Shown here: positions 42,451 through 45,600 of the stretch, piece after piece
Position numbering within the stretch: the stretch's first letter is position 1
How the letters are laid out: each line of letters starts with the position of its first letter
Assembly (NCBI GenBank): GCA_910586345.1
Contig: CAJUHC010000001.1
Location: forward strand, 38,164-102,163
Length of the DNA stretch: 64,000 bases
Direction: 5' to 3'
From: an uncultured Christensenella sp.
GTDB taxonomy: Bacteria; Bacillota; Clostridia; Christensenellales; Borkfalkiaceae
The notes under the pieces: model-generated
Seen by the model: the letters and a program-made list of their open reading frames with translations, nothing else
The model's database searches: none
Told to the model about the DNA's origin: nothing
Position numbers and translations under genes: made by a program

Positions 42451-42541
42451 TTTTTCGTCCCTTTTTAATATTATACCGCAAAAACGCATTTTAAGCAAGT
42501 GCGAATAATAAATTATTTTTTAAAAAGCGTGAAATAATGCT

Positions 42542-42570
42542 TTGACAAACGAATAATAATATGATATAGT
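42542..42570 (+). promoter_or_regulatory. Strong sigma-A promoter (TTGACA-17-TATAGT) in front of the disrupted tRNA-Ser
   Basis: TTGACA at 42542-42547 and TATAGT at 42565-42570. The 5' end of the tRNA is at 42584. Confidence 0.6.
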
Positions 42571-42583
42571 TATTTAGCTTTAA

Positions 42584-42623
42584 GCGGACGTACCCAAGTG
42601 GCTCAAGGGGCTCCCCTGCTAAG
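42584..42623 (+). pseudogene. 5' half of a disrupted tRNA-Ser(GCT): acceptor, D-arm, 5' anticodon stem and anticodon loop
   Basis: GCGGACGTACCCAAGTGGCTCAAGGGGCTCCCCTGCTAAG followed by unrelated sequence. It is complementary in the acceptor and anticodon stems to the 3' half at 43862-43921. Confidence 0.75.
42615..42623 (+). repeat. Left copy of the 9-bp direct repeat CCTGCTAAG (anticodon-loop core) flanking the insert
   Basis: An identical 9-mer lies at 43862-43870. The same 9-mer is also present in the anticodon loop of the intact tRNA at 42788-42878. Confidence 0.75.
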
Positions 42624-42626
42624 AGA

Positions 42627-42658
42627 AACTTGTGGTTAATCGGGGAATAGCACAAGTT
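42627..42658 (+). repeat. Subterminal inverted repeat (AACTTGTG / CACAAGTT), 4 nt inside the left junction
   Basis: 8-bp arms at 42627-42634 and 42651-42658. A second hairpin, AAATGTT/AACATTT, lies at 42660-42677. Confidence 0.6.
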
Positions 42659-42787
42659 GAAATGTTTTGCAACATTTTGAAATGAATTGAAAGGTTATTT
42701 TGGTGTTCCCCTAAAAGACAGAAAATATAGCAAATCGTTGCAAACCGTTGCAATGTGTTTCAATTTAATAGACAATTTATAGACAAT

Positions 42788-42878
42788 GTGGAAGTACCCA
42801 AGCGGCTCAAGGGGACGCCCTGCTAAGGCGTTAGCACGGATTTCCGTGGCGAGGGTTCAAATCCCTCCTTCCACGCCA
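42788..42878 (+). tRNA. tRNA-Ser (anticodon GCT), intact, with encoded CCA
   Basis: Manual fold. Acceptor GTGGAAG/CTTCCAC. D-arm CCC..GGG. Anticodon stem ACGCC/GGCGT with loop CTGCTAA. Long variable arm CACGG-ATTT-CCGTG. T-arm GAGGG-TTCAAAT-CCCTC. Discriminator G followed by CCA. Confidence 0.9.
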
Positions 42879-42910
42879 AACGCCCAAGCTCTTAATGAGC
42901 TTGGGCGTTT
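42879..42910. terminator. Bidirectional terminator shared by tRNA-Ser and hicB
   Basis: AAACGCCCAAGCT-cttaatg-AGCTTGGGCGTTT, a 13-bp perfect stem followed by a T-rich tract. Confidence 0.75.
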
Positions 42911-42927
42911 AATTTGTTTTTTACTTG

Positions 42928-43401
42928 TTAAACTGCGCTTCCGTCTGCGTAAAAGATACGCCAATCAAAATCAAGAAGTAAGCCGATCCTCTTTGCCATA
43001 TCGGGCGAAGGTGTTTTTTTACCGCTGATTATATAGGTAAAGTATGAACGGTCGACGCCTAAAATTTGGGCTGCTTGACTTTTGTTTAGTTGTCTCTTTG
43101 TAAGTCCGTTTTCAACCTCTACCGCCGCACGGAATTTAACCGCATCCTCGCTTTCGTAAGGTTCGGCTTTTACAAGGCTTACAAAGTCTCCTTTGTCAGT
43201 TACTTTTATTGAAGTCATTTCGCTGGGTGCATTAAGCTGTTCTTCGCCATCGGAATATACGAAAAGCGCATCTCCCGCCATTGCGTACGCTTCTTCCAAA
43301 GTTTCGCCTTCGGTTAAGCATCCCGGCAAATCGGGGAACTCTACCCAATAACCGCCTTCTTCAGCTTTGTGAAATAATGCAGGATAAATTATATCTTTCA
43401 T
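42928..43401 (-). CDS. hicB: HicB family antitoxin with a C-terminal XRE-type HTH
   Basis: MKDIIYPALFHKAEEGGYWVEFPDLPGCLTEGETLEEAYAMAGDAL... is the HicB fold signature. The C-terminal HTH reads LNKSQAAQILGVDRSYFTYIISGKK. RBS AAGGAG. Confidence 0.9.
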   Translation of the reverse strand: MKDIIYPALFHKAEEGGYWVEFPDLPGCLTEGETLEEAYAMAGDALFVYSDGEEQLNAPSEMTSIKVTDKGDFVSLVKAEPYESEDAVKFRAAVEVENGLTKRQLNKSQAAQILGVDRSYFTYIISGKKTPSPDMAKRIGLLLDFDWRIFYADGSAV

Positions 43402-43438
43402 AATGTTATCTCCTTATTTATTCTGTGCAGGGCGGTGC

Positions 43439-43633
43439 TTATTTTTTCAGCCCCGCCTGTTTGAGTATTGCCTGTTCGAGTCCTTTGCCTAAATCTTTGT
43501 TATGCATTGGAACGGTTGTCTGTTTACCTGTTTGCGGATTCCGCAGTCTGAGGTGCGACGTTCCCGGCTGCCGAACTTCCTCAAAGCCGTTAGCTTTCAA
43601 AAATTTAACCATTTCTTTTGGTGTCATCGGCAT
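43439..43633 (-). CDS. hicA: HicA family mRNA interferase toxin
   Basis: MPMTPKEMVKFLKANGFEEVRQPGTSHLRLRNPQTGKQTTVPMHNKDLGKGLEQAILKQAGL. I chose the ATG at 43633, with AGGAGG 8 nt upstream. The ORF track uses the GTG at 43642. Confidence 0.9.
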   Translation of the reverse strand: MPMTPKEMVKFLKANGFEEVRQPGTSHLRLRNPQTGKQTTVPMHNKDLGKGLEQAILKQAGLKK

Positions 43634-43659
43634 TAGCCCCACCTCCTGTTTACAATATT

Positions 43660-43689
43660 ATTATATACTATTGTTGACTAAAAGTCAAC
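43660..43689 (-). promoter_or_regulatory. hicAB promoter (TTGACT-17-TATAAT) with an overlapping perfect palindrome GTTGACT-TTT-AGTCAAC, a likely HicB operator
   Basis: On the minus strand, -35 is at 43688-43683 and -10 at 43665-43660. The palindrome spans 43673-43689. Confidence 0.6.
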
Positions 43690-43792
43690 ACTTTTAACAC
43701 AATTTTTTTGAAAAATAGACAATTAATAACACTCCCCTGTTTAGGGTGTCCCAAAAATATAGACAATTTATAGACAATGAGTTAATAAAAAC

Positions 43793-43838
43793 CACAATAT
43801 ATAGTTTTATAAAAGTAAGCAAACTACTATATATTGTG
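43793..43838 (+). repeat. Perfect 13-bp inverted repeat (CACAATATATAGT / ACTATATATTGTG), 24 nt inside the right junction
   Basis: Arms at 43793-43805 and 43826-43838, with a 20-nt loop. Confidence 0.65.
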
Positions 43839-43861
43839 TATTTGCAAAAATTGCCTACATA

Positions 43862-43921
43862 CCTGCTAAGGGAGTAGCGCGGGAAACTGCGGCGCGAGTT
43901 CAAATCTCGCCATCCGCGCCA
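43862..43921 (+). pseudogene. 3' half of the disrupted tRNA-Ser(GCT): loop core, 3' anticodon stem, variable arm, T-arm, acceptor, CCA
   Basis: CCTGCTAAGGGAGTAGCGCGGGAAACTGCGGCGCGAGTTCAAATCTCGCCATCCGCGCCA. GGGAG pairs with CTCCC of the 5' half. The acceptor pairs with one C-A mismatch. Confidence 0.75.
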
Positions 43922-43963
43922 AAAACGCAGTATTTCGTTTGACACGGAATACCGCGTTTTTTT
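43922..43963 (+). terminator. Rho-independent terminator of the original tRNA-Ser gene
   Basis: AAACGC-GTATT-CG ... CG-AATAC-GCGTTTTTTT. Confidence 0.6.
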
Positions 43964-44146: not shown

Positions 44147-44920
44147 ATGAAAATATTAAATAAATCAAATGTAACCTACAACGCGGTACCGCCGAATCAA
44201 CCCGGAGTTCCCGGCAGTCTTACAAGCAATAGCGTAGAAACAGAGGTATTGTCCGACGCTATTAAAAAAGTTATGACCGTAGACAAAACTTTTGCCAAAG
44301 AAGGAGAAACAGTTCACAATACGGTAACGATTACCAACAATTCATCTGCGGTTTTAACTCCGGCTTATATCATAAACCCCGCGCCCGACGGAGCAAGTTT
44401 CGTTGAAGGAAGCGTCAAAATAAACGGAGTCGCAGCCCCGGCAGACCCCGTATTAGGAATCACCCTTCCTGTATTAAACTCCGGCGAAACAATTACTATC
44501 GAGTACGATATGCAAATAAAGAGCCCTTCTACGGTAACCGCTGTAACCAACACTGCCGAATTCCGATACGACGTGGGAGACCCTGTAAGCGGCATCATCT
44601 CAACCTACACCGAACCCACCAACGACGTTACGGTAAACGTTGTTTCGGCAAAACTCGAAGTTGTGAAAAGCGTCGACAAGGCTTTCGCCGTCAAAGGTGA
44701 AACGCTGACCTATACCGTAACGTTTACGAATAAAGGCAATATTAATATAAACGATATTTATTTCACGGATAATATCCCGCAAGGCACTACTTTTGTGGAT
44801 AAATCCGTTATGATAAACGGTCAGAATATCGCCGCCTACCGTCCCGACATCGGATACAGCGTAGCAAACTTACCTCCCGACGACAGCGCAACCACGAGTT
44901 TCCAGGTAACGATAGACTGA
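44147..44920 (+). CDS. DUF11-like (conserved repeat domain) protein with two repeats and no signal peptide
   Basis: 257 aa. Repeats are MTVDKTFAKEGETVHNTVTITNNS... and VVKSVDKAFAVKGETLTYTVTFTNKGNININDIYFTDNIPQGTTFV. RBS TAGGAG. Confidence 0.6.
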   Translation: MKILNKSNVTYNAVPPNQPGVPGSLTSNSVETEVLSDAIKKVMTVDKTFAKEGETVHNTVTITNNSSAVLTPAYIINPAPDGASFVEGSVKINGVAAPADPVLGITLPVLNSGETITIEYDMQIKSPSTVTAVTNTAEFRYDVGDPVSGIISTYTEPTNDVTVNVVSAKLEVVKSVDKAFAVKGETLTYTVTFTNKGNININDIYFTDNIPQGTTFVDKSVMINGQNIAAYRPDIGYSVANLPPDDSATTSFQVTID

Positions 44921-44934
44921 TTAAGGGGTTAATT

Positions 44935-45600
44935 ATGTTAATACCCAATAAGATAACGGTAACTTACGACGCCATATCGCCCGACGGTAAAAAGTATTCC
45001 GAAAAAACGGAAAGCAACGCCGTAAACACGGAAATTTTAACTTATTCGGTTTCAAAAAAAATACGTTCCGATAAAACAGCAGTCCGTGCCGGAGAAACCG
45101 TGCGTTATACCGCGACGTTAACCAACGACTCGGCGGCGGAATTATTCGATATTTTTTTCAAAGTACCTCAACCCGAAAACGCAAGTTTCGTTACGGGCAG
45201 TGTTAAAATTAACAAAACGGCGCAACCGTCGTGCAATCCTATAACGGGCTTTTATATACCGGATATAAACACGGGCGAAACTGTTGTAATAGAGTATGCA
45301 ATAAAAGCCGAAAAACCGACAGCAACGCCTGTTACTCAATTCGCAACGTTTGATTATACCGTAAACGACCCTGTAAGAGGTAACGCGGAGTACTCCGAAA
45401 ATACCGATAAAATTTTGCTAAACATTATGGAAAAAATCAACGATACGTTTCAAATCGTTATTCGCAGAACCGAATATTTCGCAACGAGAAATTATATTTA
45501 CCCTTGCCGTAATTGCTGTGATTGTAGTGATTTTTGCAACCGTTGCGGTTGTTACGATTGCTGTGATTGCTGTTGCTGTGATTGTTTCCGCGACTATTAA
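44935..45600 (+). CDS. DUF11-like protein with an extremely Cys-rich C-terminal tail
   Basis: 221 aa. One DUF11-like repeat (SDKTAVRAGETVRYTATLTNDSAAELFDIFFKVPQPENASFV). The tail is CRNCCDCSDFCNRCGCYDCCDCCCCDCFRDY, with 14 Cys in the last 31 aa. No signal peptide. Confidence 0.6.
   Translation: MLIPNKITVTYDAISPDGKKYSEKTESNAVNTEILTYSVSKKIRSDKTAVRAGETVRYTATLTNDSAAELFDIFFKVPQPENASFVTGSVKINKTAQPSCNPITGFYIPDINTGETVVIEYAIKAEKPTATPVTQFATFDYTVNDPVRGNAEYSENTDKILLNIMEKINDTFQIVIRRTEYFATRNYIYPCRNCCDCSDFCNRCGCYDCCDCCCCDCFRDY

What the first reader, a model, noticed from the sequence alone, without database searches (positions are those of the whole stretch)
42584..43921. tRNA-Ser(GCT) gene split in its anticodon loop by a 1.24-kb recombinase-less insert that carries its own replacement tRNA-Ser(GCT) and a hicAB module
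Seen directly:
- 42584-42623 is a perfect tRNA 5' half ending in the anticodon loop (..CTCCC CTGCTAAG).
- 43862-43921 is the matching 3' half (CCTGCTAAG GGAG...CCA).
- When joined, the anticodon stem CTCCC/GGGAG, the T-arm and the acceptor stem pair. There is one C-A mismatch in the acceptor stem, consistent with decay after disruption.
- The junctions share a 9-bp direct repeat, CCTGCTAAG.
- The 1238 bp between the halves contains an intact, sequence-divergent tRNA-Ser(GCT) in the same orientation, plus hicA/hicB on the opposite strand.
- No integrase or transposase is present.

Inference:
- This is a small, non-autonomous or decayed integrative element. It inactivates a host tRNA, complements the loss with its own isoacceptor, and is stabilised by a toxin-antitoxin pair.
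- The strong host promoter (TTGACA-17-TATAGT at 42542-42570) would read through the tRNA 5' half and two hairpins into the element's tRNA. The element may therefore use the host tRNA promoter.
- Canonical tRNA-targeting islands instead restore the target tRNA by carrying a duplicate 3' segment.
Basis: partly seen in the sequence, partly recalled or inferred. Interest (0 to 1): 0.75.

Follow-up and report, generated by a model that had tools for sequence, protein, structure and literature searches.

The report
Phage remnant that replaced a tRNA
A 1.25-kb leftover of a temperate phage sits inside the anticodon loop of the host's serine tRNA gene, splitting it and supplying its own replacement tRNA plus a toxin-antitoxin pair; this integration strategy was described in 2024 as "tRNA-dependent lysogeny", and here it appears in gut Clostridia in a stripped-down form with no integrase.

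Summary
tRNA-Ser(GCU) is split at 42623/43871 by a 1247-bp insertion that includes one copy of the 9-bp repeat CCTGCTAAG. A conspecific contig, L149, is 98% identical over 16.5 kb. It carries the uninterrupted tRNA, which matches the in-silico join exactly, including the C·A pair. That mismatch is therefore native and not a sign of decay.

The insert contains:
- a 164-bp arm;
- an intact but divergent tRNA-Ser(GCU), 76% identical to the host tRNA;
- a terminator;
- a hicAB cassette;
- a 149-bp arm.

It has no recombinase and no terminal inverted repeats.

A second, independent element in another gut species splits the same tRNA after the same nucleotide. It carries its own tRNA-Ser(GCU) and has AGACAAT boxes at the same offsets from the core (+101, +155, +166). 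That element is a full siphovirus-like prophage.

This matches published "tRNA-dependent lysogeny" (PMC10865867): a short core, no rebuilt tRNA, and a phage tRNA that complements the loss.

The window element is most likely a deletion remnant that kept only the parts that cannot be lost, the replacement tRNA and the toxin-antitoxin pair. Less likely, it is a mini-element that can be mobilised in trans.

The mechanism is already known. The host clade, the target tRNA, the architecture and the reduced form are new. Interest is moderate.

The parts
42542..42570 (+). Host tRNA-Ser(GCU) promoter, TTGACA-17-TATAGT with a TG extension. It is the only consensus promoter upstream of the element's tRNA.
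   Evidence: The same sequence lies upstream of the intact tRNA in L149.
42584..42623 (+). 5' half of the host tRNA-Ser(GCU), the host side of attL. It ends with core copy 1, CCTGCTAAG (42615-42623).
   Evidence: It is 100% identical to the 5' part of the intact tRNA in L149 and L148.
42624..42787 (+). Left arm of the element ('Y', the P'-arm equivalent). It is non-coding. AGACAAT boxes start at 42770 and 42781 (+155 and +166 from the core start), and a degenerate box, AGACAGA, starts at 42716 (+101). Hairpins lie at 42627-42658 and 42654-42766.
   Evidence: It aligns colinearly with the arm of the L153 prophage, with the boxes at the same offsets.
42788..42878 (+). Element-borne replacement tRNA-Ser(GCU) ('tRNA B'). 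It is intact, has a G73 discriminator and an encoded CCA, and is 76% identical to the host tRNA. It contains an internal copy of the core at 42819-42827.
   Evidence: It is absent from the empty site in L149.
42878..42910 (.). Hairpin terminator with a 14-bp stem, shared by tRNA B (+) and hicB (-).
   Evidence: A similar hairpin lies downstream of hicB in L144-L147.
42928..43401 (-). hicB antitoxin, 157 aa (HicB_lk_antitox; an HTH region is listed for homologues).
43439..43633 (-). hicA toxin, 64 aa.
43660..43689 (-). hicAB promoter, TTGACT-17-TATAAT. It overlaps the palindrome GTTGACTAAAAGTCAAC (43673-43689), which is conserved in hicAB cassettes of other species.
43713..43861 (+). Right arm of the element ('X', the P-arm equivalent). 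It is non-coding. ATAGACAAT occurs at 43715, 43759 and 43770, so the AGACAAT boxes lie at -145, -101 and -90 from the core start. A 34-nt direct repeat of the sequence upstream of tRNA B lies at 43746-43779, and an inverted repeat at 43788-43843.
43862..43921 (+). Core copy 3, CCTGCTAAG (43862-43870), followed by the 3' half of the host tRNA-Ser(GCU) (43871-43921). This is the host side of attR.
   Evidence: It is 100% identical to the 3' part of the intact tRNA in L149 and L148.
43921..43961 (+). Terminator of the host tRNA.
   Evidence: (I4). It is present downstream of the intact tRNA in L149.

Best explanation
The insert is an integrase-less derivative of a temperate phage that uses tRNA-dependent lysogeny. 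It is most likely a deletion remnant.

**Proposed sequence of events**
1. The parent element recombined with the host tRNA-Ser(GCU) gene through a 9-bp common core, C-CTGCTAA-G. This is the 7-nt anticodon loop plus one base pair on each side.
2. The recombinase was most likely a tyrosine integrase guided by arm-type AGACAAT sites on both sides of the attP core.
3. Because identity is limited to 9 bp, neither junction rebuilds the tRNA. The host gene stays split into 42584-42623 and 43871-43921.
4. Serine AGY decoding is taken over by the element's own tRNA-Ser(GCU). This tRNA lies 164 bp inside the left junction, in the same orientation as the host gene. It is probably transcribed by read-through from the strong host tRNA promoter and ends at its own terminator.
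5. The phage body and the integrase were later lost. What remains is what a cell cannot delete without cost: the now-essential replacement tRNA, the hicAB addiction module, and about 150 bp of non-coding arm on each side.
6. Both junctions and all arm boxes are intact. Precise excision by a cognate Int/Xis supplied in trans therefore remains formally possible.

**What is shown**
- A precise insertion with a 9-bp duplication, and an empty site in a conspecific strain.
- The composition of the insert.
- A homologous full prophage with the same core and the same arm layout.

**What is inferred**
- The type of recombinase.
- That the element arose by deletion.
- Read-through expression of tRNA B.
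- That tRNA B is essential.
For: **Precise insertion**
- L149 is 98.04% identical over 16.5 kb. It has one continuous tRNA identical to the join and one copy of CCTGCTAAG.
- The sister species L148 also has the intact tRNA.
- All 120 other-species loci that share the 5' half have an intact tRNA. Many of them keep the GDSL gene divergently upstream of the tRNA.

**Same strategy in an independent element**
- L150-L160 show a host 5' half with a different acceptor stem (GCAGAT...), then the same CCTGCTAAG, then non-tRNA sequence.
- This is followed by an arm of about 180 nt, a different intact tRNA-Ser(GCU) and a terminator.
- That element continues into tape-measure, tail-fibre, Dit and Neck1 genes.
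- The orthologous site in the related species L077 holds an intact tRNA.

**Arms**
- ATAGACAAT occurs 5 times in the window, only in the insert and all on the + strand. The expectation is 0.41, and 0 of 100 shuffles reach 5.
- AGACAAT boxes lie at +155 and +166 in both elements, and at +101 in L153 (degenerate in the window). The window's right arm has boxes at -145, -101 and -90.

**Published mechanism with the same defining features**
- PMC10865867 describes a tyrosine integrase, an 8-17 bp core, no reconstructed tRNA, a phage tRNA of the same isotype, and arm-type sites flanking the core.

**No autonomy**
- No recombinase was found in the window ORFs tested or in the flanking genes.

**Fixation in the lineage**
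- The exact HicB protein is found on 188 contigs (253 blocks). The locus is 100% identical in four of five other assemblies compared and 99.94% in the fifth.
Against: - No integrase was seen. The far end of the full prophage relative could not be fetched, so the recombinase class is inferred only from the arm-like repeats and the literature.
- No phage gene fragments remain in the insert. This fits a clean deletion, but it fits integration of a ready-made mini-circle equally well.
- The hicAB cassette is 89.5% identical to cassettes at unrelated, non-phage loci in other species. It may have entered later and need not be original phage cargo.
- The attP-side sequences next to the core show little dyad symmetry (11 of 25 positions).
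- The AGACAAT dimer next to tRNA B overlaps a TATAGA -10-like hexamer. It could be a promoter element rather than an integrase-binding site.
- I could not test whether tRNA B is the only tRNA-Ser(GCU) in the genome.
Confidence: 0.7

Rival explanations
1. The 1.25-kb unit is a non-autonomous mini-element, similar to a CIME or a satellite. It integrated in its present form as a 1247-bp circle, using the integrase of a helper phage of the same family supplied in trans. It persists through double addiction: an essential tRNA plus hicAB.
For: - Both core copies and all six arm boxes are retained. No phage pseudogene debris lies between them.
- The two tRNA halves have no substitutions relative to the empty allele.
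- Contig L006 ends exactly at the last base of tRNA B. This hints at co-existing variants with different cargo after the tRNA.
Against: - Only one insertion site in one species was found.
- No second copy and no circular junction were found in viral or metagenome collections.
- Retention of a tRNA, a toxin-antitoxin pair and short flanks is also what deletional decay under selection predicts.
Confidence: 0.2
2. The unit is a transposon-like cassette (a MITE or mobile insertion cassette) inserted by a DDE transposase that makes 9-bp target-site duplications.
For: - A 9-bp direct repeat flanks the insert.
- There is no recombinase inside the unit.
Against: - There are no terminal inverted repeats. 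The local alignment score is 10, against a shuffle mean of 10.2.
- An unrelated-cargo element in another species is inserted after exactly the same nucleotide of the same tRNA, with conserved sub-terminal boxes at fixed distances. This indicates site-specific recombination.
Confidence: 0.04
3. The structure is an artefact or coincidence. Either it is an assembly chimera, or the two fragments are independently decayed tRNA copies that were never contiguous.
For: None beyond the general risk that comes with metagenome assemblies.
Against: - The same 1701-bp structure is 100% identical in four independent assemblies and 99.94% identical in a fifth.
- 22 of the 23 contigs read carry the same neighbourhood.
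- The empty allele joins the two halves exactly.
Confidence: 0.01

Closest known systems
tRNA-dependent lysogeny of actinobacteriophages, for example Fionnbharth (K4), LeBron (L), Gaia (X) and Mollymur (Guerrero-Bustamante & Hatfull, mBio 2024, PMC10865867)
   Same: - attB lies in a host tRNA gene.
[quoted passage not shown]
- Neither junction rebuilds the tRNA.
- The element carries a tRNA with the same anticodon.
- Repeated arm-type boxes flank the core.
   Different: - The host is a gut Clostridia lineage whose nearest syntenic relatives are Christensenellales-like MAGs, not an actinobacterium.
- The target is tRNA-Ser(GCU), with the core in the anticodon loop.
- The replacement tRNA sits inside the attachment arm, 164-185 bp from the core and co-oriented just downstream of the host tRNA promoter. 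In Fionnbharth the tRNA lies elsewhere in the genome and has its own demonstrated promoter.
- The window copy has no integrase and no phage genes, and it carries hicAB.
Lactobacillus johnsonii prophage Lj965, cited in PMC10865867 as a possible example outside the actinobacteriophages
   Same: It is a prophage of a Bacillota host. It is reported not to rebuild the target tRNA, and it carries a cognate tRNA.
   Different: - In record NC_005355 the integrase is at one end and the tRNA genes (Ser, Glu, Tyr, Phe) form a mid-genome cluster at 12.8-13.4 kb. They are not next to the attachment site.
- Lj965 is a full 40-kb prophage.
Canonical tRNA/tmRNA-integrating islands and prophages (Islander-type, PMC4383910; for example P4, HP1, T12)
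   Same: They integrate site-specifically into a tRNA gene. One known sub-class crosses over in the anticodon loop (my recollection of Williams 2002, not checked here).
   Different: Canonical elements carry a copy of the 3' part of the tRNA, so an intact gene is regenerated and only a displaced fragment marks the far end. Here the identity is 9 bp, both halves are orphaned, and a whole replacement gene is supplied.
CIMEs (cis-mobilisable elements), which are att-flanked and recombinase-less derivatives of ICEs in streptococci. This comparison rests on my own knowledge and was not checked here.
   Same: They are flanked by functional-looking attachment junctions, lack an integrase, and are presumed to be mobilisable only in trans.
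   Different: - The element here derives from a phage family, not an ICE.
- It splits its target rather than restoring it.
- It carries an essential-gene replacement.

Membership tests
tRNA-dependent lysogeny (PMC10865867) | attB overlaps a host tRNA gene | tested here: met
   The conspecific empty site in L149 has an intact tRNA-Ser(GCU) exactly where the insert lies.
tRNA-dependent lysogeny (PMC10865867) | Only a short common core (about 8-17 bp), and no functional tRNA rebuilt at attL or attR | tested here: met
   The core is the 9-bp CCTGCTAAG. The 5' half is followed by AGAAACTT... and the 3' half is preceded by ...CCTACATA. ARAGORN finds no tRNA at either junction.
tRNA-dependent lysogeny (PMC10865867) | [quoted passage not shown] | tested here: met
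   tRNA-Ser(gct) at 42788-42878 scores 57.2 bits in Rfam and is 76% identical to the host tRNA.
tRNA-dependent lysogeny (PMC10865867) | A tyrosine integrase encoded by the element | tested here: not met
   The insert has no recombinase. None was found in the window ORFs tested or in the flanking 10 kb. For the full prophage relative, the far end could not be retrieved.
tRNA-dependent lysogeny (PMC10865867) | Arm-type integrase-binding sites flank the attP core | tested here: inconclusive
   AGACAAT boxes lie at -145, -101 and -90 and at (+101), +155 and +166. The offsets are conserved in an independent element. Binding was not tested, and the dimer overlaps a -10-like TATAGA.
tRNA-dependent lysogeny (PMC10865867) | The element is a temperate phage | tested here: not met
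   The window insert has no phage genes. The homologous element in L151-L156 does: tape measure, tail fibre, Dit and Neck1.
tRNA-dependent lysogeny (PMC10865867) | The disrupted host tRNA is otherwise essential (single copy), so the element's tRNA is required | not testable with these tools
   Only a 64-kb window is available. This needs a tRNA inventory of the whole genome.
Canonical tRNA-restoring genomic island or prophage | The element carries a 3' tRNA segment that regenerates the target gene at one junction | tested here: not met
   Identity stops after 9 bp.
DDE transposon or MITE | Terminal inverted repeats plus a target-site duplication | tested here: not met
   A 9-bp duplication is present, but there are no terminal inverted repeats. 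The alignment score is 10, against a shuffle mean of 10.2 and sd of 2.0.
HicAB type II toxin-antitoxin module | Adjacent hicA (toxin) and hicB (antitoxin with an HTH) under one autoregulated promoter | tested here: met
   Pfam gives HicA_toxin at 1.4e-20 and HicB_lk_antitox at 3.5e-11. The promoter is TTGACT-17-TATAAT and overlaps a conserved palindrome. Activity was not tested.

The most novel reading that the evidence does not exclude
The 1.25-kb unit is not dead debris. It is a living hitch-hiker: a minimal attachment-site cassette that helper phages of the tRNA-dependent-lysogeny type integrate and excise in trans. It makes itself undeletable in two ways. It replaces the host's only tRNA-Ser(GCU), taking over the host promoter, and it carries hicAB. 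A weaker corollary is much more likely to be true. A phage tRNA has permanently displaced an essential host tRNA gene in a whole bacterial lineage.
Probability: 0.18. Interest if true: 0.7.

Novelty: new variant of a known kind. Interest (0 to 1): 0.45.

Why it matters
The authors of the 2024 paper on tRNA-dependent lysogeny asked how common the strategy is outside actinobacteriophages. This locus and its full-prophage relative show it in uncultured gut Clostridia, at tRNA-Ser(GCU). The design is more compact here, because the replacement tRNA lies inside the attachment arm, directly behind the host tRNA promoter.

The window copy also shows a possible evolutionary end-point. Once the phage body is gone, the host lineage appears to be left with a foreign tRNA in place of its own at this locus. 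That tRNA is locked in, because only a precise excision would restore the original gene. This would be a concrete route by which phage tRNAs become host genes.

There are also practical consequences:
- Orphan tRNA halves next to an intact tRNA with the same anticodon can serve as a searchable signature of such elements.
- Island finders that rely on regenerated tRNAs will miss them.

Tried and rejected
**Searches that found nothing**
- Viral-contig scans all gave 0 hits: the circular junction, the ATAGACAAT dimer, tRNA B, each junction 20-mer, the L153 tRNA, and an AGACAAT-plus-tRNA pattern.
- The metagenome scan for tRNA B gave 0 hits.
- In the phage database, the insert matched only at the level of the tRNA and hicA.
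- The L153 phage genes had no relatives by DNA or protein. The 206-aa protein had none in viral contigs.

**Explanations rejected**
- Canonical restoring island. I tested whether the intact tRNA is a host 5' half joined to an element 3' half, with 43871-43921 as the displaced fragment. It is not. The 3' fragment pairs with the 5' half at 42584 (anticodon stem 5 of 5, acceptor stem 6 of 7) and not with tRNA B, and the empty site settles the matter.
- Transposon: there are no terminal inverted repeats.
- Decay of the split gene: the C·A pair is native.
- hicAB as a marker of the element family: close hicAB homologues in other species sit at unrelated loci with no tRNA and no AGACAAT boxes.

**Not obtained**
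- The organism name could not be found.
Full report
**1. What is in the sequence**

- 42584-42623 is GCGGACGTACCCAAGTGGCTCAAGGGGCTCCCCTGCTAAG. This is the acceptor 5' strand, the D-arm and the 5' anticodon stem plus loop of a class II tRNA.
- 43862-43921 is CCTGCTAAG followed by GGAGTAGCGCGGGAAACTGCGGCGCGAGTTCAAATCTCGCCATCCGCGCCA.
- CCTGCTAAG occurs only three times in the 64-kb window: at 42615, 42819 and 43862.
- ARAGORN finds a single tRNA in the window, tRNA-Ser(gct) at 42788-42878. Rfam scores it at 57.2 bits, E = 7.5e-11.
- The in-silico join of the two fragments is called as a 91-nt tRNA-Ser(gct). All arms pair, apart from one C·A pair in the acceptor stem.
- On the minus strand between the fragments lie hicB (42928-43401) and hicA (43439-43633). 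Their Pfam E-values are 3.5e-11 and 1.4e-20.
- The hicAB promoter is TTGACT-17-TATAAT and overlaps the palindrome GTTGACTAAAAGTCAAC.
- The host promoter TTGACA-17-TATAGT (42542-42570, 11 of 12, TG-extended) is confirmed.

**2. The two halves were once one gene**

I searched with a variant of the adjacent GDSL-hydrolase protein (P0122, 99% identical) and found contig L149, ERZ13692144 NODE_2916.
- L149 has the same gene order but lacks hicAB.
- It aligns at 98.04% identity over 16,490 columns to the window with 42624-43870 removed. The alignment is a single block that crosses the junction.
- At the junction it has one intact tRNA-Ser(gct), identical to the in-silico join, and a single CCTGCTAAG.
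- L148, from a sister species (GDSL 92%, flanking DNA 83%), carries the identical intact tRNA.
- In a scan of one genome per species, all 120 loci that share the 5' half continue with GGAGTAG..., meaning they are intact.
- About 30 of those loci, mostly Clostridia or Christensenellales-type MAGs, keep the GDSL gene divergently upstream of the tRNA.

The empty state is therefore ancestral. The window carries a precise 1247-bp insertion, consisting of 1238 bp plus a second copy of the 9-bp core.

The C·A pair cannot be decay. It is present in the intact genes of L149 and L148, and in L021, L024, L031, L034, L058, L061, L110, L113 and L116.

**3. Anatomy of the insert**

| Coordinates | Part |
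|---|---|
| 42624-42787 | Non-coding left arm ('Y'), 164 bp |
| 42788-42878 | tRNA B |
| 42878-42910 | Hairpin terminator with a 14-bp stem |
| 42917-43709 | hicBA operon with its promoter |
| 43713-43861 | Non-coding right arm ('X'), 149 bp |

- The hicAB block is a separable cassette. It is 89.5%, 81.5%, 75.8% and 69% identical at the DNA level to hicAB operons of other species. Those operons lie at unrelated chromosomal loci, with no tRNA next to the cassette (the only tRNA found, a tRNA-Gly in L137-L142, lies about 2.5 kb away) and with no copy of ATAGACAAT or CCTGCTAAG (both tested in L128-L142). No recombinase appears in the Pfam lists of their called genes.
- The insert ends have no terminal inverted repeats. 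The local alignment score is 10, against a shuffle mean of 10.2.
- No recombinase was found among the window ORFs scanned. None appears in the Pfam list for the genes within 10 kb on either side.
- The window otherwise holds housekeeping genes, including dnaJ, grpE, V-ATPase and opp.
- ATAGACAAT occurs five times in the window, always on the + strand and only inside the insert. The expectation is 0.41, and 0 of 100 shuffles reach five.
- A 34-nt direct repeat links the sequence just upstream of tRNA B with the right arm.

**4. A second element with the same design**

I scanned metagenome contigs for the tRNA 5' half followed by any base other than G, which is the signature of a split gene. This returned exactly one contig, L150, from human gut.

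Read in tRNA orientation, L150 contains the following:
- a host 5' half with a different acceptor stem (GCAGATG...);
- the same CCTGCTAAG;
- non-tRNA sequence after the core;
- an arm of about 180 nt;
- a different intact tRNA-Ser(gct), 75% identical to tRNA B and 84% identical to the window's host tRNA;
- a terminator.

Longer contigs that carry the adjacent 206-aa protein (L151-L156) show that this element is a siphovirus-like prophage.
- It encodes a tape-measure protein (PHROG E = 6e-25), a collagen-like tail fibre, Dit and a Neck1 or tail-completion protein.
- The host side contains a TTGACA-17-TATATT promoter and an M20 peptidase gene.
- A related species, L077 (84% flank identity), has an intact tRNA at that site.

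The two arms align colinearly, and the AGACAAT boxes sit at the same distances from the start of the core:

| Element and arm | Box offsets from the core start |
|---|---|
| Window, left arm (Y) | +155 and +166, plus a degenerate AGACAGA at +101 |
| L153, left arm (Y') | +101, +155 and +166 |
| Window, right arm (X) | -145, -101 and -90 |

Boxes at fixed offsets on both sides of a short core are the layout of an attP site with arm-type sites for a tyrosine integrase.

**5. Mechanism**

The features match "tRNA-dependent lysogeny" (Guerrero-Bustamante & Hatfull 2024, PMC10865867). In that system:
- a tyrosine integrase recombines attP with an attB inside a host tRNA gene;
- the common core is only 8-17 bp, so the tRNA is not rebuilt;
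- putative arm-type sites flank the core.

The authors note that the host tRNA is single-copy and essential in their system. They ask how common the strategy is outside actinobacteriophages, and they cite Lj965 of Lactobacillus johnsonii as a possible example.

For the window, I infer this sequence.
1. A phage of the L153 family integrated at the anticodon loop of tRNA-Ser(GCU).
2. tRNA B took over AGY decoding.
3. The phage body and integrase were then deleted.
4. What remains is the part whose loss is costly, namely the tRNA and the toxin-antitoxin pair, plus the short arms.

In both elements, the only consensus promoter upstream of the element's tRNA is the host tRNA promoter. tRNA B is therefore probably made by read-through across the orphan 5' half and the arm. 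The predicted transcript folds into an arm hairpin, the cloverleaf and the terminator.

The element is essentially fixed in this lineage.
- The exact HicB protein is on 188 contigs (253 index blocks), against 242 blocks for the flanking GDSL protein.
- The 1.7-kb region is 100% identical in four other assemblies and 99.94% identical in a fifth.

**6. What is shown and what is inferred**

Shown:
- the split gene;
- the empty allele;
- the 9-bp duplication;
- the composition of the insert;
- the absence of a recombinase and of terminal inverted repeats;
- a homologous prophage with the same core and box offsets.

Inferred:
- the integrase class;
- origin by deletion rather than integration of a ready-made mini-circle;
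- read-through expression;
- the essentiality of tRNA B;
- whether hicAB was original cargo.

The mini-element alternative (probability about 0.2) is kept alive by three points. The junctions and arms are complete, there is no phage debris, and contig L006 ends exactly at the last base of tRNA B. That contig end suggests a co-existing variant with other cargo.

**7. Comparison with known systems, and novelty**

The window element meets the three sequence-level criteria of tRNA-dependent lysogeny. It fails the integrase and phage criteria, so I classify it as a derivative of that kind of element and not as a member phage.

It differs from the published cases in four ways.
- The host clade is different.
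- The target is tRNA-Ser(GCU), with the core in the anticodon loop.
- The replacement tRNA sits inside the attachment arm, behind the host promoter. In Fionnbharth the tRNA lies elsewhere and has its own promoter. In Lj965 the tRNAs form a mid-genome cluster.
- The element is reduced to 1.25 kb and carries a toxin-antitoxin module.

It differs from canonical tRNA islands (PMC4383910, listing) because it does not regenerate the target gene.

The mechanism is already described, and the variant is new. Interest is moderate, at 0.45.

Noticed in passing
L006 1-390 (equivalent to window 42489-42878): An 81-kb contig from another sample ends exactly at the last base of tRNA B. This suggests an assembly branch there. 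A co-existing variant may have different sequence after the tRNA, such as a full phage or a form without hicAB.
   Followed up: partly
L156 and L159 (ends of contigs): These contigs of the full-prophage relative stop 21 nt and 5 nt before the CCTGCTAAG core, inside the host 5' half. This is consistent with a mix of filled and empty alleles, or with excision, in those samples.
   Followed up: no
window 42917-43709; L128-L147: The hicAB operon with its promoter and operator recurs at 69-89.5% DNA identity in other species. It lies at unrelated chromosomal sites with no visible mobility genes or repeats. It behaves as a promiscuous 'naked' toxin-antitoxin cassette, and how it moves is unexplained.
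   Followed up: partly
window 42589 paired with 43915; L021, L024, L031, L034, L058, L061, L110, L113, L116, L148, L149: A C6·A67 mismatch in the acceptor stem is a conserved native feature of intact tRNA-Ser(GCU) genes in a group of related Clostridia MAGs.
   Followed up: partly
window 44935-45600 (+): A DUF11/CLIPPER-domain protein ends in an extremely cysteine-rich tail (...CRNCCDCSDFCNRCGCYDCCDCCCCDCFRDY). It lies next to a second DUF11 protein at 44147-44920.
   Followed up: no
L153 10963-10980 (- strand): In the full-prophage relative, the attL junction itself forms a small hairpin, CCCCTGCTAAGTAAGGGG, followed by a T-run. This looks like a terminator and might attenuate read-through from the host promoter.
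   Followed up: no
window 42819-42827: The replacement tRNA contains a perfect internal copy of the 9-bp core. Recombination with either junction would create non-functional hybrid tRNAs. The anticodon stems differ between the host tRNA (CTCCC/GGGAG) and the element tRNA (ACGCC/GGCGT), which might prevent self-targeting.
   Followed up: no
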